A stretch of 46,310 nucleotides of DNA from a phage, in the NCBI GenBank assembly GCA_012455605.1, contig GCA_012455605.1_3618.2; one strand, given 5' to 3'. The notes beneath the pieces are model-generated. The model was not told the DNA's origin. It did not search any database and worked only from the letters and a program-made list of their open reading frames with translations. Below, piece by piece: positions 9,053 to 40,837 of the stretch. Each line of letters begins with the position of its first letter. Within the stretch, counting starts at the first letter, position 1. Made by a program: the position numbers and the translations under genes.

Positions 9053-9084
9053 GCCCTCGCTGCTTCGGCGGGGGCTTTTTGTTT
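9053..9084 (+). terminator. Intrinsic terminator
   Basis: GC-rich hairpin gccctcgc-tgcttcg-gcgggggc followed by TTTTTGTTTG. Confidence 0.7.
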
Positions 9085-9087
9085 GTA

Positions 9088-14564: not shown

Positions 14565-14589
14565 CCCCGCTTCGGCGGGGTTTATTTTT
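14565..14589 (+). terminator. Intrinsic terminator (UUCG tetraloop hairpin)
   Basis: CCCCGC-TTCG-GCGGGG followed by TTTATTTTTA; identical 16-mer hairpin recurs at 40803. Confidence 0.8.
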
Positions 14590-14598
14590 ATGCTCAGA

Positions 14599-14660: not shown

Positions 14661-16151
14661 GTGGCTAAGTATGGATTGACAGAGGCTGGTTTCGTTATAC
14701 CAACCCTAAATGACCTAATCGTTGAAACTAAGCAAAGCCTGATCCGTGCTTTTGGCGAAAACTTCAACGTACAGAGTAACTCCGTTGCAGATAAGCTGAC
14801 CACTATCTTCAACGAGCGAGAGTATCAACTTATTCTTATGGCAGCATCTGTATACGCATCACAGACGCTGTATGGGGCAGAAGGTATTTACCTGGATGAG
14901 CTTCTTGGAAGACAGGGTATTTACCGAAGAGGCCGTTCTAAATCATCAGGTACCTGCCAGTTGACAATCAACACAACTGTGCCGTACAATATGATTTATG
15001 ATTCCAAAACTTATACGCTGGACAGTGGCAACTTTGTTCTTAGCAACGATGTGCAAGTAGCAGGGAATCTTATTGCTCACAGAATAAATGCTCCAGACCT
15101 AAGGATTGGTAAATACAACTTTCAAATTACCAACCAGACAGATGGAAGTATCAAAACAAAAAGTCTGGTTTTAACAGATAAGTCTCTGGACTCTTCTGAT
15201 TTGCCAAGCTTTTACGGAGAGATTAAGCGATTCATTGTCGATAATACAACCCTGTTGAACGACGATTTGATTCAGGTCGATATGTTGACAGGAACGTTGT
15301 GGATAGGGTACAATTCGAATCTTGATCAAGTTGGACTTAATAGTAGAGTAGATTTCAGAGTATCCCCGATTGTAGGGGAAAGAACTATCACCCTGGATGT
15401 TATCGCTAACGAGGCTGGTGAGCTGTCAAGAGAGGCAGAAACCGTGACAACAATGTCACCTACCCCCAGTGGATTTATCAAGCTTACCAACCGAGAAAGA
15501 TTCAATGAGGGCAGGGATGTTGAGAAAGACTCAGAGTATCGCTTAAGAGCTTCCAGCACAAAACAGTTAACATCTAAGGCTACCCGTCCTGCAATCCTTA
15601 GCGCTGTAAGCGAGGTGAAAGGTGTTGAGAAAGTGAGGGTGTTCTCCAACAACACCGATAAAACTGATGCTAAAGGTATACCTCCTTACAAGTTCCAAGT
15701 GGTTGTGTTTGGTGGTGCAACGGAGGACATTTGCCAAGCACTTTACCAAACTATAGCCTGTACTAACAGGACTTATGGTAATATTTTCTACGATGTCACT
15801 ACATCTGATGGTCAAACTGAAAGAATTTATTACTCCAAGGCAAATACCTACCGCCTAGATGTAAGAATTACCTACTCCGGTGCCGCACTTTCCACAACCG
15901 AAAAAGATGCCATTGTAGAGGCTCTTTTGCAGGTTGTTAACGGACTGGATGTTGCAGATACGTTGTATAATATCCAATTGGTCGGCGCTGCATCTGCTGC
16001 TGTATCAATAGGCAGATTTAATAGACTGGTAATTCAAGTTAAACCAGTAGGAGCTTCTGATGAAGCTTACACTACAAACGATATTGTTGCGAACATGACC
16101 GAGGTGTTTGACCTCGACGAAAGTAATATAACTTTCCAACAAACTATTTAA
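14661..16151 (+). CDS. Baseplate wedge protein, Baseplate_J-like
   Basis: GTG start 5 nt after GGAGG. Position after W/tip genes and before I-like gene; segments such as YLDELLGRQGIYRRG and C-terminal ...TEKDAIVEALLQVVNGLDV are reminiscent of P2 gpJ-family proteins (recalled, not aligned). Confidence 0.5.
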   Translation: MAKYGLTEAGFVIPTLNDLIVETKQSLIRAFGENFNVQSNSVADKLTTIFNEREYQLILMAASVYASQTLYGAEGIYLDELLGRQGIYRRGRSKSSGTCQLTINTTVPYNMIYDSKTYTLDSGNFVLSNDVQVAGNLIAHRINAPDLRIGKYNFQITNQTDGSIKTKSLVLTDKSLDSSDLPSFYGEIKRFIVDNTTLLNDDLIQVDMLTGTLWIGYNSNLDQVGLNSRVDFRVSPIVGERTITLDVIANEAGELSREAETVTTMSPTPSGFIKLTNRERFNEGRDVEKDSEYRLRASSTKQLTSKATRPAILSAVSEVKGVEKVRVFSNNTDKTDAKGIPPYKFQVVVFGGATEDICQALYQTIACTNRTYGNIFYDVTTSDGQTERIYYSKANTYRLDVRITYSGAALSTTEKDAIVEALLQVVNGLDVADTLYNIQLVGAASAAVSIGRFNRLVIQVKPVGASDEAYTTNDIVANMTEVFDLDESNITFQQTI

Positions 16152-16162
16152 GGCGGCGAGAT

Positions 16163-16849
16163 ATGGCAGAGATTAAGTCGGATGTTAACCACATCCACAC
16201 TCTGCCAGATTTTGTTCAGGGAGGTCTTGACTACCTGCCTGGAGATTTTCTGGCTGAGAAGGTTAATTTGGTCACATTCTTAACCGTGTACCTTAAAAGG
16301 TTGGAGGATGTTGATAAGATGCTGGTAGGTTTGGCTGAAGGAAGATTGCTTAACAATGCCAGCGGAAGATACCTTGACGAAGTTGGTAATCAACTTGGTA
16401 TTCTTAGGAATGGACTTTCAGATGCTGATTTTCGTGCCACACTAATTATTCAGCAGGCCGCAGCATCAAGGGGCGGGACTCGCGAAGATGTCATCTCCAC
16501 CTTGCGACAATTGTTCGGAAGAGACAATTTCGATACGTGGAAAGGAGACAACTTCAGGTTTGACATAAATATTAGAAAAACTTGCTTTGACATATTGCAG
16601 TCTATCGATCAGATCTTAGATATGCTACCATTGCCTTGTCATTTGCGTCTTACAGAATCGCAAGGGCAAGCTTTTGGTTTTGAAGGGGACTCTACAGCTC
16701 TTGGCTTCGGATCAGTGTGGGAAGAAAACCAATTCGGAGTTGGTGGGCTGGCTACTTTGCTATATGTTCCTGACGTAAGACCTGATTGGGACACCACAAC
16801 CATTTATTGTGAAAGTATTACAGTAAACGCAACTAGACAGGAGGGTTAA
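16163..16849 (+). CDS. Baseplate protein, possibly gpI-like
   Basis: 228 aa, immediately downstream of J-like gene, stop overlaps next start (TAATG). Assignment is positional. Confidence 0.35.
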   Translation: MAEIKSDVNHIHTLPDFVQGGLDYLPGDFLAEKVNLVTFLTVYLKRLEDVDKMLVGLAEGRLLNNASGRYLDEVGNQLGILRNGLSDADFRATLIIQQAAASRGGTREDVISTLRQLFGRDNFDTWKGDNFRFDINIRKTCFDILQSIDQILDMLPLPCHLRLTESQGQAFGFEGDSTALGFGSVWEENQFGVGGLATLLYVPDVRPDWDTTTIYCESITVNATRQEG

Positions 16850-18921
16850 TGGCAACAGCTGTTTTTAAACCTTACCGTGATTACTCTACAATGGCTGCAC
16901 AGTTTCATTACCGAACAGTTCAGGATACTGCCGTTCCTGGTAGGGATTATAATCATGTTGAGGGCGATGTAACTATCCCAATTGGGGCAACCAGTATTGA
17001 GATCCCCGTGGAAATTGTTGACAAATTACCCAACAGGTTGCCAAGAAGCTTCTTTATGGAGTTTTCATCAAAATCTCAAGGGGTGATGATTGGAACACAA
17101 AGGGCGAAATGTACAATAGTTTCAGATGAGAATCTTGACAGGATATCTTGGGATACTGTTGAGGAGAGAATGTTTCACCCAAGGTATTGGGTTACAACTA
17201 CTCAGCAGACTGAAAGTACCTGTATTGTTGCAGATAACAACTGTTGTATTAACCGTTTAGTGTCAAGAACATATGGAGGTATGGCTGGGTGCATTTGGGA
17301 AACAGTTGACAAGTATGACCATTTCGGTATTGGGTTTGATGATCATTATGAGATGAGAAATACCAAGCTTTGGTTCAGAATGTCAATAACCAACGCCAGC
17401 AACTTCTCCACTCCTGAAAAGATGATTATGACTGTAGACCTTGTTGATGGCACAATCATCTATGTTCCTTTAGCTCAATATGCTGTCAGCATCTCAGAGG
17501 ATAAGAATGTTGCAGAAATTCATATTGATTTCGAGGACTGCGTCGGGATGGACCAGAACAACAATATGATGGGTGTTGATCCTCGACAGGTGAGAAGGAT
17601 TTTAATACCGCTTATGCCTAAAGATTGGGTAAGCAATAGCACAAACCCAAGAACGGAAAATGTAGAGTGTGAGTTACGCCTAGATCTGCTTCAGCCAGAC
17701 ACAGGCTGGAAAATGATGCAACTTAACAATATTCAGGTGAAAGAACACGACGTTGGGATCTGCACAGCATATGACGATATGTGGAACGTGTCTCCTTTAA
17801 GGGTGTTGAACAATATCAAGCGTCTGGGCTATACCGGAACCATAAACCATTATGTTGGTATGAGTCATTATTATGACTACACATGGTCAGGAACTCAATG
17901 GTCTATAAACAGAACAGGAGCGCTAAACGCTGCAGCTTATAAATGGCATGATGATTTTATGTACAATGCCAAACGACATAACTTCGACGTTATGCAATCT
18001 GTAAGTTTTGAGCTTTTCAGCGATGCCTGCCCGTTGGAATGGACCCAAAGAGACTGGAACGATAACTACGCTAAAACAGGGTATACACCTTGTAGCTACC
18101 TCCTGTCTCCAACCATTGAAGAGGGTATGAATTTCCTTACTGCAGTATTTAAGAATTTTGCATCAGCCGCTATGAGAAACAACCTGCCAGTGATTATGCA
18201 GGTTGGTGAACCGTGGTGGTGGTACAATACCGATACTCGTAGACCTTGTATTTATGATTACCCTACAAAGCAGGCGTTTTATGATGAGACAGGTGAGTAT
18301 GCATTAGATATTGGGACTATTGACGATCCTAAAACTGGCGGTGTTTACGACAAGTATGTAGCATTTTGTCGTGGTAAGCTTGGCGCTCGTATTGCGGCTA
18401 TTTCAAAGGCAATAAAGGCACACGCTGCATCAGCTCAGATGACAGCTTTGCTGTTTTTCCCAACCATCATGGAAACCGAGCTTACGCAAAAGCTGAACCT
18501 TGCTGACCAATATAAAAAGGAAGCAGGTGCTCTTGATTTCTTCTGCACCGAGTGCTACGATTGGGTGATGCAGGGAGGTATTGAAAAGGCAAAAGAGTCT
18601 GTAAACATACCTATCGTTAAGTTAGGTTGGCAACCGTCTGAAATACAATACCTTGCAGGGTTCGTTCCTAGTAAAGAGCTTGCTCCGGTATATGGCTACG
18701 ACCCAACCAGGAATTACCAAGAATTTTTATGGAGATGTATCTGCGGAAACATGGCAACCATAGAGTATAGATACCCTGAGGTAAAACAGTATGTGTGGGC
18801 ATACCCGCAAGTAATGTCTGACAGCATCACTGTTACAGCCAGAGATTCTACCGTGCTTCATATGGGGCAGGTTGCTCTGAAAGGGTATGTAGAAGATGTT
18901 GTCCCGCCAGACTTCTCATAA
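16849..18921 (+). CDS. Tail-associated protein with N-terminal Calx-beta-like domain
   Basis: 690 aa. N-terminal FHYRTVQDTAVPGRDYNHVEGDVTIPIGATSIEIPVEIVDK fits the Calx-beta pattern; remainder Trp/Tyr-rich, possibly carbohydrate-binding or hydrolase. Occupies the fibre (H) position after the I-like gene. Confidence 0.4.
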   Translation: MATAVFKPYRDYSTMAAQFHYRTVQDTAVPGRDYNHVEGDVTIPIGATSIEIPVEIVDKLPNRLPRSFFMEFSSKSQGVMIGTQRAKCTIVSDENLDRISWDTVEERMFHPRYWVTTTQQTESTCIVADNNCCINRLVSRTYGGMAGCIWETVDKYDHFGIGFDDHYEMRNTKLWFRMSITNASNFSTPEKMIMTVDLVDGTIIYVPLAQYAVSISEDKNVAEIHIDFEDCVGMDQNNNMMGVDPRQVRRILIPLMPKDWVSNSTNPRTENVECELRLDLLQPDTGWKMMQLNNIQVKEHDVGICTAYDDMWNVSPLRVLNNIKRLGYTGTINHYVGMSHYYDYTWSGTQWSINRTGALNAAAYKWHDDFMYNAKRHNFDVMQSVSFELFSDACPLEWTQRDWNDNYAKTGYTPCSYLLSPTIEEGMNFLTAVFKNFASAAMRNNLPVIMQVGEPWWWYNTDTRRPCIYDYPTKQAFYDETGEYALDIGTIDDPKTGGVYDKYVAFCRGKLGARIAAISKAIKAHAASAQMTALLFFPTIMETELTQKLNLADQYKKEAGALDFFCTECYDWVMQGGIEKAKESVNIPIVKLGWQPSEIQYLAGFVPSKELAPVYGYDPTRNYQEFLWRCICGNMATIEYRYPEVKQYVWAYPQVMSDSITVTARDSTVLHMGQVALKGYVEDVVPPDFS

Positions 18922-18933
18922 TCAGGAGATAAA

Positions 18934-19974
18934 ATGTCAAAACCTAGTTTTCCATTAGAGATTTGGGCAGAGGAGGATCAGGTTCTGCCTAACACCCACA
19001 GACAGAACAGGCTACGCCCGATTGATGATTTGTGGAGAAAAGGTTGGGATCTTGGTCAAAAGCCCTCATGTGAAGAACTTAACTATATTTTCAATATGCT
19101 CGGAACTTGGGCAAAATACATTGCTGACGAGCAGATCCCCGCTCAAGAAGGCCGTTATCTGGTACGTGATAATAACTTGAGTGATCTTTTGAACATTCCT
19201 GTTGCCCGTAGAAACCTTGGGATTATTACTAAGGAAGAGGCAGACGCCAGGTATGTAAAAGTTACAGGTGATACAATGACAGGCCCATTGGGTTTGCAAC
19301 GTATCAACTTTAAAGCTGCCGAGACAGATAAGGCTTGGATAGAGACAACTATTGGCCCAGATAAGACAACTCTCGACTTTGGGTTAAGTGATAATACTGG
19401 GGCGTTTGATGATGGTGGCACATCTACGGTAGATGCGTTTCGTTGGAGATTCCAGCCAACTCAGCCGGATATTAATCCAGAGTTCACTTTGATGTACCTT
19501 AACGCGATCACGGCTAACCGTGCGCTGTTGAAAGTGGTAGGCAATGTTGAAGTTGTCGATAACATGAGGTGCAATAACCTTACTATCAGCAATACAGCAA
19601 CATTCACCAACTGTAATGTGGCTAGTCAGTTGACGGCTGGGTCGGTATATGTTAATGGTGGTGCAAGTTGTGACAGTATGGTTGTAAGAAGCCAGCACTG
19701 TGTTGTCGGTAACAGAAATGTGGTTCGCTCTGTGAACGGAGTGACGGCTAACGGTAACGGTGATGTAACGATCACTATCCCGCAGACAGGTGTGCAAGAC
19801 ATCAGAATCGGTGCAAGACTTGTGGACGGAGTTTCTGAATCTCCAATCCGCAACGGCTACGTTGTCACAGGCTGGCATTTCGGTGACAAAAAAGAGATGC
19901 GTGGTTCAACCTACTGGGCAGGACCTTTACAAAAACTTGTAAATGGTCAATGGATCACTGTTAATTATGCATAG
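18934..19974 (+). CDS. Tail fibre protein (paralog A)
   Basis: 346 aa. N-terminus MSKPSFPLEIWAEEDQVLPN...KGWDLGQKP and C-terminus YWAGPLQKLVNGQWITVNYA conserved with gene 20989; fibre motif VARRNLGI; followed by a Tfa gene. Confidence 0.65.
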   Translation: MSKPSFPLEIWAEEDQVLPNTHRQNRLRPIDDLWRKGWDLGQKPSCEELNYIFNMLGTWAKYIADEQIPAQEGRYLVRDNNLSDLLNIPVARRNLGIITKEEADARYVKVTGDTMTGPLGLQRINFKAAETDKAWIETTIGPDKTTLDFGLSDNTGAFDDGGTSTVDAFRWRFQPTQPDINPEFTLMYLNAITANRALLKVVGNVEVVDNMRCNNLTISNTATFTNCNVASQLTAGSVYVNGGASCDSMVVRSQHCVVGNRNVVRSVNGVTANGNGDVTITIPQTGVQDIRIGARLVDGVSESPIRNGYVVTGWHFGDKKEMRGSTYWAGPLQKLVNGQWITVNYA

Positions 19975-19988
19975 ATCGGAGGACTAGC

Positions 19989-20573
19989 ATGAAAATACTT
20001 CAAGAGTTTAAACTTTACCAACCGGGATCTGGCGAATACCACGCCAACAAGGAAACCAAGGAGCTGACCCCTCAAGAGGTTGAGGATTACACCGCATACA
20101 CTGGGTATTTTTTACGTAATGATGATGGCGATTGGTATGTGCAGTCACGAACATTACGACAAGAAAATCCGGGTTGTATCTTCCTACTTGTTGACGAGAA
20201 GGGAATTCTTAAGACATCTACAGAAGAACCTGATGCCTTATGGCCTGCTCCAGGTCTTCGTGTGGTTATCGCCAAAAAAGAAGAGGTACCAGAAAACATT
20301 ATGCTTCACCACGACGCTTTGCGTTTAGTTGGTGATGAATTTGTCACAGATAATGAATTCTTTGTTCAACAGGCAGAGGGTGTCATAGAGACAGAACTTG
20401 CTTGGGCTACTGCTAGAATTGGTGCCTATCAAGACATGATTGACCTTGAATATGATCTTACTGATGACCAGAAACGTAACATCAGAGATTTGAAAATGTA
20501 CAGGGTAAAACTTCTTGAAATAGATACATCTAAAGCCCCTGACATTTTCTTCCCGGAGCGACCTACCCTCTAA
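19989..20573 (+). CDS. Tail fibre assembly chaperone (Tfa / gpG-like)
   Basis: 194 aa directly after a fibre gene; C-terminal signature KMYRVKLLEIDTSKAPDIFFPERP matches the conserved Tfa motif (YR..L...D...AP.I.WP..P). Confidence 0.75.
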   Translation: MKILQEFKLYQPGSGEYHANKETKELTPQEVEDYTAYTGYFLRNDDGDWYVQSRTLRQENPGCIFLLVDEKGILKTSTEEPDALWPAPGLRVVIAKKEEVPENIMLHHDALRLVGDEFVTDNEFFVQQAEGVIETELAWATARIGAYQDMIDLEYDLTDDQKRNIRDLKMYRVKLLEIDTSKAPDIFFPERPTL

Positions 20574-20584
20574 GAGGAGGTGTT

Positions 20585-20899
20585 GTGGAGTTGGATTTGG
20601 CGGCATTGTACGGTATCTGCATGGGTACCGTTGTCCCGATCTGTGTATGGGCTTTCAACCAGTGGCACACCAAATGGAAAGGCATTTCCAAGAGGTTGGA
20701 TGAACTGGAGAAAGACCTCATCTTAGTGAAAAACAGTATGGTTACAAAAGATAAACTTGATTCCGTTATCGAGACCCGGTTAAGCAAGCTAGAGGCCGAT
20801 ATTAACGACCTTAAGCAGGATGTCAGGACAGATGTCTCCGGTATCCGAGCTGATGTACAAAAGATTTTGCACATGCTCGTAGAGCATAGTAAAAGGTAA
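20585..20899 (+). CDS. Small membrane protein with N-terminal TM helix and coiled-coil tail (holin/i-spanin-like or fibre accessory)
   Basis: GTG start 4 nt after AGGAGG. Hydrophobic LAALYGICMGTVVPICVWAF followed by charged heptad-like sequence (LDELEKDLILVKNS...LSKLEADINDLKQDV). Confidence 0.35.
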   Translation: MELDLAALYGICMGTVVPICVWAFNQWHTKWKGISKRLDELEKDLILVKNSMVTKDKLDSVIETRLSKLEADINDLKQDVRTDVSGIRADVQKILHMLVEHSKR

Positions 20900-20908
20900 A
20901 CAAAGGTC

Positions 20909-20940
20909 AGAACGGAAAGGACTCCGTTCTTGCATTTTGT
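20909..20940 (+). terminator. Intrinsic terminator
   Basis: 8-bp stem AGAACGGA-aaggac-TCCGTTCT followed by TGCATTTTGTTCT. Confidence 0.55.
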
Positions 20941-20958
20941 TCTCTAAAGTGTTAAAAT
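20930..20958 (+). promoter_or_regulatory. sigma70-like promoter with extended -10 (TTGCAT-17-TGt-TAAAAT)
   Basis: TGTTAAAAT at 20950-20958, -35-like TTGCAT 17 nt upstream, overlapping the terminator tail; about 30 nt before gene 20989. Confidence 0.45.
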
Positions 20959-20988
20959 AGTCCTAAGGAATTTTCTCAGGAGAACGCG

Positions 20989-22032
20989 ATGACTAAACCA
21001 GTTATCCCTCTTGATATTTGGGCCAATCAGGATGTTGTGCTTGAAAATACGGGAGAGTTGAATAAGTCTCAACCAAAAAAAGAAGAGAGATTGAAAGGTT
21101 GGGATATGACCCAAAGAATGGCATGTGAAGTTGTTAACTTTGAACTTCACATGCTTTCTGCGTGGTTAAAGCATTTAACAGAAGATGTTGTCCCAGGATG
21201 GGATAATAGATTCTTAAGGGTCACTAATAATCTAGCAGACGTTCCAGACAAAGCTGCTGCACGTCAAGTTCTCAATGTATACTCACCTGAAGAAATGGAC
21301 GATCTATATGTTGACAAGTCTGGAGACATAATGACTCAGACTCAAACTTTAGGTCTTCAAAGAATCGAGTTTGCATCTGCGTCAACAGACAATGCGGCAA
21401 TATATACCACCATAACCTCAGACAAGACGATGATGGATTTCTGGATTATGGACAACATTGGTGGTGCTGACGGCACAGATCTTGATGATCCTTCTCACCA
21501 AATAGACGGGTTCCGTTGGAGATTTCAGCCTTCTGGTGGGCAGCCTGTGTTTTCGGCTATGAAGCTCAATGCTATAACTGCCAACCGTGCAAGACTGGCT
21601 ATCCAAGGAAATCTTGAATGCAACGATGCAAAAAGTTCCTCTGCAAATGCCAATGCGGTCACGATCCCGAGAGCCACTGTTAATGGACAACAATCTTGTG
21701 GAAGCGCTCAAATAGGTGGAAGAGTTGATTGTAACGATGAAACCGTCAGGGGACAATATGCAACAGTTGGTGGAAGAAACGTGGTCCGCAGGGTAAATGG
21801 TAACAGCGCAGACGGTAGTGGTAACCTTACTATCCCGATGCCTAGCAGAGGGGTTGATGATGTAAGGATAGCAAACCGTTTCAAAACCACCTACAGAGAG
21901 TCAAGAGTCTACCCTGGACATGTGATGTGCTCTGGTAACTACGCTTATAAACACCCTTATCAAGGTGATTACTGGACAGGTGCTATCCAAAAACTTGTAA
22001 ATGGTCAATGGATCACTATATCTTATGCTTAA
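20989..22032 (+). CDS. Tail fibre protein (paralog B)
   Basis: 347 aa. N-terminus MTKPVIPLDIWANQDVVLEN and C-terminus YWTGAIQKLVNGQWITISYA conserved with gene 18934; central region divergent; fibre motif DKAAARQVLNV. Confidence 0.65.
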   Translation: MTKPVIPLDIWANQDVVLENTGELNKSQPKKEERLKGWDMTQRMACEVVNFELHMLSAWLKHLTEDVVPGWDNRFLRVTNNLADVPDKAAARQVLNVYSPEEMDDLYVDKSGDIMTQTQTLGLQRIEFASASTDNAAIYTTITSDKTMMDFWIMDNIGGADGTDLDDPSHQIDGFRWRFQPSGGQPVFSAMKLNAITANRARLAIQGNLECNDAKSSSANANAVTIPRATVNGQQSCGSAQIGGRVDCNDETVRGQYATVGGRNVVRRVNGNSADGSGNLTIPMPSRGVDDVRIANRFKTTYRESRVYPGHVMCSGNYAYKHPYQGDYWTGAIQKLVNGQWITISYA

Positions 22033-22043
22033 AAAGAGGGTAA

Positions 22044-22310
22044 ATGAAACTAACTCAGTTTTTATGGGGACTGGTTGCGGCATCTGATGACCCTACGAAA
22101 GTATCCCAATCTAAGCTATGGTCGAACATAGGTATGGCGGTGATGACTGGGGTGTTTATTCATATGGGGTACAATGATACGCTCCCTGAATGGTATGCGT
22201 GGATATACGCGCCTTCAGTAGCTTGCCCCCAGCTTATTAGCAAATTCATCTCGCTCAGGTGGGGTTGCCAGCACCCTGACCACGTTAAAAACGAAGAGCA
22301 AAAAGCTTAA
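22044..22310 (+). CDS. Small hydrophobic protein, unknown
   Basis: 88 aa, RBS AGAGGG; one hydrophobic segment LWSNIGMAVMTGVFIHM; between two fibre genes. Confidence 0.4.
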   Translation: MKLTQFLWGLVAASDDPTKVSQSKLWSNIGMAVMTGVFIHMGYNDTLPEWYAWIYAPSVACPQLISKFISLRWGCQHPDHVKNEEQKA

Positions 22311-22319
22311 GGAGAAATC

Positions 22320-24065
22320 ATGGCGCAAGACATGACAAGCTTTGAGCAGGCGGTAGATCAAGTAATTGTTGATTCTGAACGTTTGCACCTGATTGTCAAC
22401 GGTAACGCTGTGGATGAAGTTGTCGTAGAGGATGGGACCACCATCCCTACGGTACGAAAAGCCATGCTTGACACCCTTTATTTTAAAACGCCACCGATCC
22501 CTTGGGCGTATGGTGCATCCACAACAGTTTTTAACCAGCTGTATGAGTTTAAAGGGGATACAGGCCCTCAGTGGTGGTACGCTCCCGCAGCATCAAAATC
22601 TAACCCGGTTAGAATGCCAGCAGATCCTTCACAATCTCCAAACTGGAGATTATACACCGACTCTGCAGTAATGGCAAAATACTACGCAAAACTTAACAGC
22701 CCAAGGTTCGAAGGTGACCCGCGAGTACCTACACCTCCAATGGACGATAAGTCAGAGTCCATAGCAAACACAGAGTTTGTTGTTGACTATGTTGATAGCA
22801 TATTTGAAGCCATGGAGGGGATGAAAGTTACTGTAGGGTCTTTGGTGGTAAAAGGTCTTACAGAACTCGCCAACACCATAGTTGGGGGCACCCTTACCTT
22901 ACATGGACCTGTTAATGGAGCGGATTCTACTGCACGCTTCAGGAACCTAATCCTCACGGCAAATACTTCTACACTTACTTTTGCGTGGAGCGATCCTAAG
23001 CATGCAGACTGGAGAAGTACAGAGCTGCAACCTCATGAAGTGTCCACCCACAGGGTTATAGCTGACACTATAACTTCTGGGAAACCAGTGGCTAATAATA
23101 ACGATGTACATTTTGATGGTCTGGGTAATAACTTTTTTGACTACGTGTACATTCGTGGTAATGCCATGAAGGCAGCAACCGAACCGACATTGCAGGTAGA
23201 TGGGACCACCAGGGTTAAGAACCTTGAGGTGACAGGTACCGTTACAGGGATAACCTACTCTGTCGATGGCACCATGATCTACCCTAGCTATATTGAAAGC
23301 ACGGGCGATGCATTGATAAACGGCGATTTGGAGGTTGGCGGGTCTGTAGTTATCCGAGGTACAGCCTCTATCCAAAATATAGCTCTGAATACTCTAAGAG
23401 TCAATGAGCGTGCAACTTTTGAAGGAGAAGGGCTTACAGCCAATAAAGGCACAATTACTGAGCTGACCACCACCACTTTAACTGCAACAACTGCAAACTC
23501 TGAAAACTGCAACATTACCAGAAACTTGCAGGTAAATGGAGATGTTAGTTTAAACGCCGCAGGGACTGGCACCACCTACCTTCACAATCTTGAAATATCC
23601 GGCACAGTGACCGGATGGCTGCCAGACTTCTCTAATGTCAACTTTGTCTGTAATGGCATTAACTCCAGTGGTAAGATAACCACCTCTCAAGAAATTGAGG
23701 CTGGTAAAACCATCACTGCCCCTACTTTCCACGCAGGGAAGGTAGATTTCGATTTAGAGGAGGTTGACGCGTCCAGTGGGACATGGACACCTAACGGGCA
23801 GGCCAGTATGTATGTTGTCCACGCTAAAGGGGATTTTACAATAGGGCAGTGGCCTGGGACATCAGCGGAAGATAAACCTTATCCATTTACTGCGGTTATC
23901 TATGTAATTCAGGATGCTGTAGGTCACAACGTGACTTTGCACGATAAGTATGCTATCCTGTCGGCAACACCTGTTATTAACAACAAGGCTAACAGTGTTA
24001 CCTTGCTGCAATTAACGTATTGTGGTGTTGGTGATATCGTAGATGTAGTAATTGCACAACGTTAA
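22320..24065 (+). CDS. Tail fibre/tailspike protein
   Basis: 581 aa. RBS identical to that of gene 1930 (taaggagaaatcATG). Gly/Thr/Asn-rich repetitive beta-strand-like sequence (TGTVTGITYSVDG, LTANKGTITELTTTTLTATTANSENCNIT). Confidence 0.55.
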   Translation: MAQDMTSFEQAVDQVIVDSERLHLIVNGNAVDEVVVEDGTTIPTVRKAMLDTLYFKTPPIPWAYGASTTVFNQLYEFKGDTGPQWWYAPAASKSNPVRMPADPSQSPNWRLYTDSAVMAKYYAKLNSPRFEGDPRVPTPPMDDKSESIANTEFVVDYVDSIFEAMEGMKVTVGSLVVKGLTELANTIVGGTLTLHGPVNGADSTARFRNLILTANTSTLTFAWSDPKHADWRSTELQPHEVSTHRVIADTITSGKPVANNNDVHFDGLGNNFFDYVYIRGNAMKAATEPTLQVDGTTRVKNLEVTGTVTGITYSVDGTMIYPSYIESTGDALINGDLEVGGSVVIRGTASIQNIALNTLRVNERATFEGEGLTANKGTITELTTTTLTATTANSENCNITRNLQVNGDVSLNAAGTGTTYLHNLEISGTVTGWLPDFSNVNFVCNGINSSGKITTSQEIEAGKTITAPTFHAGKVDFDLEEVDASSGTWTPNGQASMYVVHAKGDFTIGQWPGTSAEDKPYPFTAVIYVIQDAVGHNVTLHDKYAILSATPVINNKANSVTLLQLTYCGVGDIVDVVIAQR

Positions 24066-40788: not shown

Positions 40789-40802
40789 TTTCTAAGACAC
40801 AC

Positions 40803-40828
40803 CCCGCTTCGGCGGGGATTTTCTATTT
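40803..40828 (+). terminator. Intrinsic terminator (UUCG tetraloop hairpin)
   Basis: CCCCGC-TTCG-GCGGGG followed by ATTTTCTATTT; same 16-mer as at 14565. Confidence 0.75.
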
Positions 40829-40837
40829 GGAGCTATT

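What the first reader, a model, noticed from the sequence alone, without database searches (positions are those of the whole stretch)
19930..22017. Two tail-fibre paralogs share a 30-nt identical 3' segment despite divergent bodies
Genes 18934-19974 and 20989-22032 have conserved N- and C-termini but different central domains. Most of their DNA is diverged, yet caaaaacttgtaaatggtcaatggatcact is identical at 19930-19959 and 21988-22017. Such islands of identity at module borders are expected for recombinational domain swapping or gene conversion between receptor-binding genes.
Basis: seen in the sequence. Interest (0 to 1): 0.6.

Follow-up and report, generated by a model that had tools for sequence, protein, structure and literature searches.

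The report
Gene-conversion footprint in phage fibre paralogs
Two old, diverged copies of a short tail-fibre gene in an rV5-like E. coli phage share a perfect 30-base stretch at their 3' ends, most likely the neutral trace of one copy having overwritten a short piece of the other; it is real but ordinary.

Summary
The 30-mer occurs exactly twice in the window (19930-19959 and 21988-22017), in register, 45 nt from the 3' end of two paralogous genes that are otherwise 45% (aa) and 52% (nt) identical. The window is an rV5-like Vequintavirus, and the genes are its two known short tail-fibre paralogs (Mu GpS-like; a GpU-like chaperone follows copy A only).

The island encodes QKLVNGQWIT, the conserved last strand of GpS-type fibre tips. 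Peptide conservation alone does not explain it. All 9 degenerate codons match, against 33% elsewhere (gene-wide P about 0.003-0.005). An uncultured sister lineage keeps the same peptide in both paralogs with only 2 of 9 codons shared.

There is no sign of a DNA- or RNA-level function:
- no promoter, terminator, shared RNA fold or Rfam hit;
- about 43% of 117 isolate records carry a substitution in at least one copy.

In the sister lineage, the same 3' region shows clear B-to-A conversion tracts within single genomes (exact runs of 59 + 39 nt and of 29 nt).

Best reading: an old, short gene-conversion tract that is now decaying. The "module border" idea is only partly right. The fibre tip is a separable module, but none of the 117 isolates shows a tip swap or the deletion expected from recombination at the repeat. 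Interest is low.

The parts
18934..19974 (+). Short tail-fibre paralog A (346 aa), Mu GpS-like
   Evidence: ORF. Annotated 'short tail fiber protein' in BASEL phage JohannBauhin. N-terminus matches the phiTE short tail fibre 9cuy (E 1.4e-19) and the tip matches Mu GpS 5yvq at aa 286-343 (E 1.8e-6).
19792..19971 (+). Tip (receptor-binding) domain of A, aa 287-346; a separable module
   Evidence: Rosemountvirus fibres match only aa 287-344 (58.6% identity) and Klebsiella phage fibres match only aa 1-291. Mu GpS and S' tips align here.
19912..19973 (+). 62-nt repeat copy 1 (84% identical to copy 2), containing the island
   Evidence: the repeat finder family D1
19930..19959 (+). 30-nt identity island, copy 1; encodes QKLVNGQWIT
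19989..20573 (+). Tail-fibre assembly chaperone (GpU/Tfa-like), present only after copy A
   Evidence: Pfam Caudo_TAP, E 8.4e-12; annotated as tail fiber chaperone
20585..20899 (+). 104-aa gene of unknown function between the paralogs
   Evidence: ORF; conserved in relatives
20909..20930 (+). Terminator-like hairpin in the only sizeable intergenic gap, just upstream of copy B
   Evidence: A predicted promoter annotated in phage Gotham maps to about 20930-20958.
20989..22032 (+). Short tail-fibre paralog B (347 aa)
   Evidence: ORF; annotated 'short tail fiber protein'. Present only in Vequintavirus and the uncultured sister lineage; other genera have a single copy.
21850..22029 (+). Tip domain of B, a divergent homolog of the A tip
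   Evidence: BLASTP of A tip against B tip: 44% identity, E 4e-17. Closest tip outside Vequintavirus is only 43.7% identical.
21970..22031 (+). 62-nt repeat copy 2
21988..22017 (+). 30-nt identity island, copy 2
22044..22310 (+). 88-aa gene downstream of B; annotated as a membrane protein in some relatives, and not a chaperone
   Evidence: ORF; no Pfam hit; annotated as membrane protein in some records

Best explanation
The island is the footprint of a short ectopic gene-conversion event, a non-reciprocal copy of about 27-30 nt or more from one paralog onto the other. It happened in the common ancestor of the rV5-like (Vequintavirus) phages, at the 3' end of the two short tail-fibre genes.

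Both copies must encode the same terminal strand of the GpS-type tip (QKLVNGQWIT). That keeps the DNA similar enough for heteroduplex formation or template switching during the phage's recombination-rich replication. A conversion there is also silent at the protein level, so it is neither selected for nor against.

The tract has no function of its own today and is slowly decaying by synonymous mutation.

Shown: the identity and its statistical excess; the absence of nucleotide conservation in relatives; polymorphism among isolates; and real conversion tracts in the same region of sister-lineage genomes.

Inferred: that the rV5 island arose by the same process, and its direction (probably B to A).
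For: 1. All 9 degenerate codons match, against a 33% background (P = 5e-5; gene-wide P = 0.003-0.005).
2. Natural control: the uncultured sister lineage has the identical peptide in both paralogs, yet only 2 of 9 codons match and 7-8 of 30 nt differ. Single-copy relatives (Av-05, Seunavirus, phi92-like, Rosemountvirus) keep the motif with different codons. Protein constraint alone therefore does not produce the identity.
3. Conversion is demonstrably active in this region. In L017 and L024, the A2 copy carries 13 consecutive B-state diagnostic sites. In L016 it carries 8 consecutive B-state sites, plus one more just upstream. In each case the alleles match that genome's own B2 copy. This gives exact A2/B2 runs of 59 + 39 nt (L017) and 29 nt (contig 157310), against a maximum of 16 nt in the unconverted L012.
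4. The island predates the Vequintavirus radiation and decays at roughly the neutral rate. The longest exact shared run is 24 nt in L009 (genes about 11-12% diverged) and 14 nt in L014; the two copies differ at 0-4 of 30 sites across lineages.
5. The same AAT/AAC synonymous polymorphism segregates in A copies and in B copies.
6. The rV5 island is closer to the sister lineage's B2 copy (3 differences) than to its A2 copy (7 differences).
Against: - The statistical excess is moderate rather than overwhelming, and a scattered run of 7 matching codons elsewhere in the pair arose by chance.
- The tract is very short for homologous exchange and has no flanking homology in rV5: the flanks differ at both synonymous and non-synonymous sites.
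- No rV5-type genome shows covariation, meaning both copies sharing a non-reference variant. There is therefore no evidence of ongoing homogenisation in this lineage.
- The direction of transfer rests on weak counts (A1 against B2: 6 of 9 codons the same, P = 0.08). The outgroup Av-05 also has AAT GGT CAA TGG, which fits retention of an ancestral state as well.
Confidence: 0.6

Rival explanations
1. Coincidence. The ten residues are under strict protein-level constraint in both paralogs, and the nine degenerate codons simply happen to be the same.
For: The peptide motif is conserved across very distant fibres: Mu GpS/S', the phiTE short tail fibre, phi92-like phages and Rosemountvirus. Four of the nine degenerate codons are two-fold, with about a 0.5 chance of matching. 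A scattered run of 7 matching codons exists elsewhere in the same gene pair.
Against: The chance of all nine matching is 1.3e-4 from codon usage, and the gene-wide longest-run P is 0.003-0.005. The codons used are not the preferred ones: CAA 0.47, CTT 0.33, GTA 0.26, AAT 0.41, ACT 0.28. The same peptide pair in the sister lineage shares only 2 of 9 codons.
Confidence: 0.15
2. The 30-mer is a functional nucleic-acid element embedded in both coding sequences and kept identical by selection on the DNA or RNA. It might be a regulatory RNA structure, a protein-binding site, or a coupling signal for the downstream gene, which starts 27-30 nt further on in both cases.
For: Both islands lie at a similar distance (30 and 27 nt) upstream of the next gene's start codon. 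Identity stops sharply at both ends. Between rV5 and L009, the B copy has no change over 21970-22030 while the flanks are 10-18% diverged.
Against: - No sigma-70-like promoter or terminator at either island.
- The island alone folds weakly (-3.3 kcal/mol, z = -0.9), the two contexts fold differently (z = -2.4 and -0.08), and there is no Rfam hit.
- Synonymous variants are common. Of 117 isolate records, 108 hold at least one perfect copy and about 67 hold two. Variants occur in either copy, including a Leu-to-Phe change.
- The sister lineage and the outgroups do not conserve the nucleotides.
- The downstream genes are unrelated (a chaperone and an 88-aa protein annotated as membrane in some relatives), and each has its own Shine-Dalgarno sequence.
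Confidence: 0.07
3. The island is a recombination anchor or crossover relic at a module border. It would be the 3' homology arm through which tip domains are exchanged between the paralogs or with co-infecting phages, and it may be retained because such exchange is advantageous.
For: - The tip (aa 287-346) behaves as a separable module.
- In the sister lineage, B2 carries an A-type tip: 85-95% aa identity to A2 over the last 60 residues, against 15-30% for A1 and B1.
- Sister-lineage conversion tracts end in a 56-nt zone with no fixed A2/B2 difference, which abuts the island.
- The metagenomic genome L022 has an L014-like patch in gene A (19374-19911) whose right crossover falls between 19911 and 19923, just 5' of the island.
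- Crossovers within short conserved motifs swap adhesin specificity in T-even gp38 (Tetart 1998, as cited in PMC3157838).
Against: - All 117 Vequintavirus isolates keep the same A tip (at least 98.6% aa identity over the whole A protein) and the same B tip (at least 95.8%), with no swaps. Maffei et al. also note no allelic variation.
- There is no matching identity island at the 5' border of the tip.
- No close foreign donor exists for the B tip.
- The L022 crossover is ordinary allelic recombination between 95%-identical genes and lies outside the 30-mer.
- The island is decaying rather than being maintained.
Confidence: 0.12

Closest known systems
Short tail-fibre paralogs of Vequintavirus (rV5 group), with the single chaperone, as described for the BASEL collection (Maffei et al. 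2021, PMC8594841, S5D Fig)
   Same: These are the same genes. The window is 98.8% identical to FFH2 and rV5 across the locus, with the same annotation and order. The paper already states that there are two paralogs plus a chaperone, homologous to Mu GpS and GpU, with no allelic variation.
   Different: In the passages I read, the paper does not mention the nucleotide identity island or conversion between the paralogs. It calls the paralogs 'very similar', whereas they are 45% identical here.
Recombination within short conserved motifs of T-even adhesin gp38 (glycine-rich motifs; Tetart et al. 1998, cited in PMC3157838)
   Same: Short conserved, structure-determining motifs inside otherwise diverged receptor-binding sequence serve as the only homology available for exchange.
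   Different: In gp38 the exchanges occur between phages and swap hypervariable loops, with demonstrated host-range change. Here the exchange is between two paralogs in one genome, the rV5 tract is silent at the protein level, and no specificity change is shown.
Mu GpS/GpU tail-fibre tip and chaperone, and the Gin-invertible G segment (S/U versus S'/U')
   Same: The A tip is homologous to the Mu GpS tip (5yvq) and to the S/S' chimera 8ju3, including the terminal motif P-[ILV]-Q-x-x-[IV]-N-G-x-W. A GpU-like chaperone follows it. As in Mu, there are two alternative tips in one genome.
   Different: Mu switches tips by site-specific inversion between inverted gix sites using Gin. Here the repeats are direct, no recombinase domain was found in the nine flanking proteins scanned, and both fibre genes are complete and separate.
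Ectopic (interlocus) gene conversion and concerted evolution of paralogs in general
   Same: A sharp tract of identity in otherwise saturated paralogs, tracts carrying donor-specific alleles in relatives, and a polymorphism shared between paralogs.
   Different: The tract is very short (30 nt), old and decaying. It is not accompanied by ongoing homogenisation in the rV5 lineage.

Membership tests
Ectopic gene-conversion tract between paralogs | A contiguous stretch whose identity, including at synonymous sites, is significantly above the paralog background | tested here: met
   9 of 9 degenerate codons match against a 33% background. P = 5e-5 locally and 0.003-0.005 gene-wide.
Ectopic gene-conversion tract between paralogs | Phylogenetic discordance: inside the tract the recipient groups with the donor paralog rather than with its own ortholog | tested here: inconclusive
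   For rV5, the A1 island has 3 differences from B2 and 7 from A2, but the counts are weak (P = 0.08) and the outgroup Av-05 partly shares the state. In the sister lineage it is clearly met: 13 and 8 consecutive diagnostic sites carry the B state with own-genome alleles.
Ectopic gene-conversion tract between paralogs | Covariation of the two copies within genomes across lineages (ongoing homogenisation) | tested here: not met
   The L009 copies differ at 2 sites and the L014 copies at 4. Isolates with a variant carry it in one copy only. This fits a single old event, not continuing conversion.
Mu GpS-type tail-fibre tip with GpU/Tfa chaperone | C-terminal domain homologous to the GpS tip, including the terminal P-x-Q-x-x-[IV]-N-G-x-W strand | tested here: met
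   A aa 286-343 against 5yvq residues 440-501, E 1.8e-6 for the full-length query and 2.7e-4 for the tip alone. The B tip does not hit the PDB by sequence, but it aligns to the A tip with E 4e-17.
Mu GpS-type tail-fibre tip with GpU/Tfa chaperone | A Caudo_TAP-family chaperone gene immediately downstream | tested here: met
   Copy A: 19989-20573 matches PF02413, E 8.4e-12. Copy B has no chaperone of its own, because the downstream 88-aa ORF has no Pfam hit.
Mu GpS-type tail-fibre tip with GpU/Tfa chaperone | Physical binding of the chaperone to the fibre tip, and dependence of folding on it | not testable with these tools
   Needs co-expression or a structure. Binding is known only for Mu (PMC9608196).
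Site-specific invertible tail-fibre switch (Gin/Cin/Min, shufflon) | Inverted-repeat crossover sites flanking the variable segment | tested here: not met
   The two 30-mers are in direct orientation. No inverted repeat flanks the locus.
Site-specific invertible tail-fibre switch (Gin/Cin/Min, shufflon) | An adjacent serine or tyrosine recombinase gene | tested here: not met
   No recombinase domain in the nine proteins from 14661 to 24065, and none is annotated in that locus in relatives.
Diversity-generating retroelement (TR/VR at a fibre 3' end) | A template/variable repeat pair differing mainly at adenines, plus a reverse transcriptase | tested here: not met
   The repeat is 30 nt with no mismatches, and its flanks differ at all four bases. 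No reverse-transcriptase domain in the nine neighbouring proteins scanned.
cis-acting RNA or DNA element (promoter, terminator, structured RNA) | A consensus signal or conserved structure shared by both copies and conserved in relatives | tested here: not met
   nucleotides are not conserved in relatives.

The most novel reading that the evidence does not exclude
The terminal-strand coding segment is a maintained 'homology handle'. On this reading, the two short tail-fibre paralogs of rV5-like phages and their uncultured relatives repeatedly exchange pieces of their receptor-binding tips by intragenomic conversion. This would be a recombinase-free, RT-free way to reshuffle receptor specificity between two co-expressed fibres while keeping both compatible with the single chaperone. 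The rV5 island would be the resting state of that system.
Probability: 0.1. Interest if true: 0.5.

Novelty: new member of a known kind. Interest (0 to 1): 0.22.

Why it matters
It matters little for rV5 itself. The tract is silent at the protein level, is not maintained, and the genes are already described.

The comparative result has modest value. In an uncultured sister lineage, paralogous short tail fibres within one genome demonstrably copy stretches of their receptor-binding tips onto each other, and this changes residues (Pro to Ala and Ala to Gln in L017). Intragenomic conversion is therefore a source of tip variation in this phage group.

For phage engineering, the conserved terminal strand and the aa 287-291 junction mark natural boundaries for tip grafting. 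The 30-nt direct repeat is also a potential, probably lethal, deletion hotspot to keep in mind when propagating or recoding these phages.

Tried and rejected
- Promoter and terminator scan over 18800-22400: nothing at either island.
- RNA folding of the island and of both 111-nt contexts: no shared or unusually stable structure.
- Rfam at E up to 1: no hit.
- DGR and invertase models: rejected on repeat orientation, mismatch pattern and absence of enzyme domains.
- Search for the predicted A::B deletion junction in 50,697 phage records: none of 117 Vequintavirus records carries it.
- Search for a foreign donor of the B tip: the best match outside Vequintavirus is 43.7% identical, so recent horizontal acquisition has no support.
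- Search for isolates in which both copies carry the CAG variant: only 2 records, with one copy each.
- Megablast of the sister-lineage locus against phage isolates: no match, so its taxonomy stays open.
- An N-terminal run of 7 matching codons was considered as a second tract. I rejected it because the matching codons are interspersed with strongly different codons.
- Structure prediction and the large protein-database searches were not run. The question is about DNA-level identity, and the tip fold was already assigned by sequence to Mu GpS.
Full report
**What the window is.** The 3.45-kb stretch around the finding is 98.6-98.8% identical to more than 100 rV5-like phage genomes (Vequintavirus: FFH2, rV5, slur16, the BASEL phages). 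In the BASEL annotation the gene order is:
- lateral fibre with glycosidase/deacetylase domains (16849-18921);
- short tail fibre (18934-19974, here 'A');
- tail-fibre chaperone (19989-20573);
- a 104-aa protein (20585-20899);
- a second short tail fibre (20989-22032, 'B');
- an 88-aa protein;
- further lateral fibres.

Pfam confirms the chaperone as Caudo_TAP. Maffei et al. [quoted passage not shown] The genes and their paralogy are therefore known. Only the nucleotide island is at issue.

**The observation.** The 30-mer is present exactly twice, in register, 45 nt before each stop codon. A and B are 45% identical in protein and 52% in DNA. Where both proteins have the same amino acid, only 33% of degenerate codons are the same, so synonymous sites are essentially saturated. 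Inside the island all 9 degenerate codons are the same.
- With the empirical background, P = 5e-5.
- With the window's own codon usage, P = 1.3e-4. The codons used are not strongly preferred.
- As a gene-wide test of the longest same-codon run, P = 0.003 (permutation) to 0.005 (simulation).

A scattered run of 7 matching codons near the N-terminus, interrupted by very different codons, shows what chance alone can produce. The island is a real excess, but not an astronomical one.

**What the island encodes.** The peptide QKLVNGQWIT is the terminal strand of a fibre-tip domain found widely. The A tip (aa 286-343) aligns to the Mu GpS tip crystallised with its chaperone (5yvq) and to an S/S' chimera (8ju3). 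The motif P-[ILV]-Q-x-x-[IV]-N-G-x-W recurs in:
- the phiTE short tail fibre (9cuy);
- phi92-like phages;
- Avunavirus;
- Seunavirus;
- 52-kb Rosemountvirus fibres.

In all of these the codons differ. The tip is a separable module: Klebsiella phage fibres match A only over aa 1-291, and Rosemountvirus fibres match only aa 287-344. The B tip is a divergent homolog of the A tip (44% identity, E 4e-17) with no close relative elsewhere.

**Is the DNA itself constrained?** I found no evidence that it is.
- No promoter- or terminator-like site lies at either island.
- The 30-mer folds weakly, the two contexts fold differently, and Rfam gives nothing.
- A degenerate-pattern scan of IMG/VR and metagenome contigs recovered synonymous variants of the peptide-coding stretch. 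Among Vequintavirus-type contigs:
  - L009 has CAG AAG in copy A, so the shared run shrinks to 24 nt;
  - the L014 copies differ at 4 sites, and the shared run is 14 nt;
  - L028 has two changes in A.
- Among 117 isolate records, 108 hold at least one perfect 30-mer in 175 places. So about 67 have both copies perfect, about 41 have one, and 9 have none.
- Six records that one search showed, or that their divergent B gene suggested, to have only one perfect copy were fetched. They carry AAT to AAC in either copy, and a Leu-to-Phe change in B.
- Divergence inside the island (8 changes in 180 nt compared) is somewhat below the gene average of about 8%. That is expected where only synonymous changes are tolerated.

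**The decisive comparison.** A group of 117-140-kb metagenomic contigs has no megablast match among phage isolates. It shows the same synteny, A2 - chaperone (43% identical) - 104-aa gene - B2, and is a sister lineage that also has both paralogs. Both of its copies encode exactly QKLVNGQWIT, yet they share only 2 of 9 degenerate codons and differ at 7-8 of 30 nt. Peptide conservation therefore does not by itself give nucleotide identity, and no nucleotide-level element is shared across lineages.

In this sister lineage, the whole B2 tip is A-like: 85-95% aa identity to A2 over the last 60 residues, against 15-30% for A1 and B1. I defined 107 diagnostic sites separating unconverted A2 copies from all B2 copies.
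- The A2 copies of L017 and L024 carry 13 consecutive B-state sites, from -81 to -49 relative to the island start.
- The A2 copy of contig 157310 (L016) carries 8 consecutive B-state sites, with one more just upstream.
- In each case the alleles are those specific to that genome's own B2 copy.
- The result is exact A2/B2 runs of 59 + 39 nt in L017 and 29 nt in 157310, against at most 16 nt in the unconverted L012. The L017 tract changes two residues of the tip.

These are clear conversion tracts within single genomes. They end in a 56-nt zone with no fixed A2/B2 difference, which abuts the position of the rV5 island.

**Interpretation.** The rV5 island is best read as one more such tract, short and old. 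It predates the Vequintavirus radiation, since it is present as 24-27 nt in the deepest branch sampled, and it has since accumulated 0-4 differences per genome. There is no covariation of the two copies, so homogenisation is not continuing.

The direction was probably B to A: the island differs from B2 at 3 sites and from A2 at 7. That inference is weak, and Av-05 shares part of the sequence.

The shared AAT/AAC polymorphism in both paralogs is compatible with occasional exchange. It is equally compatible with recurrent transitions.

**On the 'module border' idea.** Some points favour it:
- the tip is a module;
- tips have been homogenised in the sister lineage;
- one metagenomic genome (L022) has an allelic mosaic patch in gene A whose right crossover lies between 19911 and 19923, just 5' of the island.

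Other points count against it:
- in rV5-type phages nothing is being swapped, as all 117 isolates keep the same A and B tips;
- there is no partner island at the 5' edge of the tip;
- the repeats are direct, so a crossover between them would remove the chaperone gene, the 104-aa gene and nearly all of B;
- no record carries that deletion junction.

I therefore treat the island as a neutral footprint, not a device.

**Why the peptide is constant in both paralogs (inference).** Only copy A is followed by a chaperone. In Mu, the Tfa binds the distal tip of the fibre and is needed for its trimerisation (PMC9608196). A shared terminal strand may be what lets one chaperone serve both fibres. This was not testable here.

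**Verdict.** The feature is an ordinary by-product of paralog recombination in already known genes. Interest is low. The most useful by-product is the direct evidence for tip-to-tip conversion in the uncultured sister lineage.

Noticed in passing
L012:7634-10778; L017:6151-9289; also L010, L011/L016, L018/L023, L019, L024, L026: An uncultured sister lineage of Vequintavirus (contigs of 117-140 kb) has no megablast match among 50,697 phage isolate records. It has both short tail-fibre paralogs, and its B2 copy carries an A-type tip with clear B-to-A conversion tracts in some genomes.
   Followed up: partly
window 20900-20988: This is the only sizeable intergenic gap in the fibre block. It holds a terminator-like hairpin (20909-20930), and a predicted promoter annotated in phage Gotham maps to about 20930-20958. 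Copy B may therefore start its own transcription unit.
   Followed up: no
window 9058-9085, 14565-14592, 40802-40829: Three copies of a GC-rich hairpin (CCCCGCTTCGGCGGGG) followed by a T-rich run. They look like a reused intrinsic terminator.
   Followed up: no
phage records MG0656xx (e.g. L030 = MG065647.1): Between 16 and 21 GenBank records named 'Campylobacter phage' are about 98.6-98.8% identical to rV5-like coliphages across this locus. The one record I inspected is flagged UNVERIFIED. The host labels are probably wrong.
   Followed up: no
L003:7949-8422 (Av-05), L004:7997-8470, L005:7961-8434: Genera with a single short tail-fibre gene (Avunavirus, Seunavirus) have a 157-aa gene, annotated as a membrane protein in Av-05 and GAP31, in the slot where rV5 has copy B. 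The sister lineage has an unrelated ORF of about 125-140 aa after B2.
   Followed up: partly
L022 (SKEL01000041.1), equivalent to window 19374-19911: An rV5-type backbone carries an L014-like allele patch (47 mismatches in about 540 nt) confined to the distal two-thirds of gene A. This is allelic mosaicism between Vequintavirus lineages.
   Followed up: partly
window 21994 (CTT to TTT), seen in L033 JEP1, L034 ECP26 and L014: A Leu-to-Phe polymorphism inside the otherwise invariant terminal motif of copy B (QKFVNGQWIT), in several independent genomes.
   Followed up: no
L015:9568-11238: A 42-kb viral contig encodes a 556-aa fibre whose N-terminal sequence differs from A and B. It ends in ...ARPIQKLVNGQWITVGQL, the same ten residues, with 9 of 30 nucleotide differences.
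   Followed up: no
window 16849-18921: A 690-aa protein with Calx-beta, NCTSP_N and NCTSP TIM-barrel Pfam domains (E 4e-80). It is annotated in BASEL phages as the lateral fibre with glycosidase and deacetylase domains.
   Followed up: no
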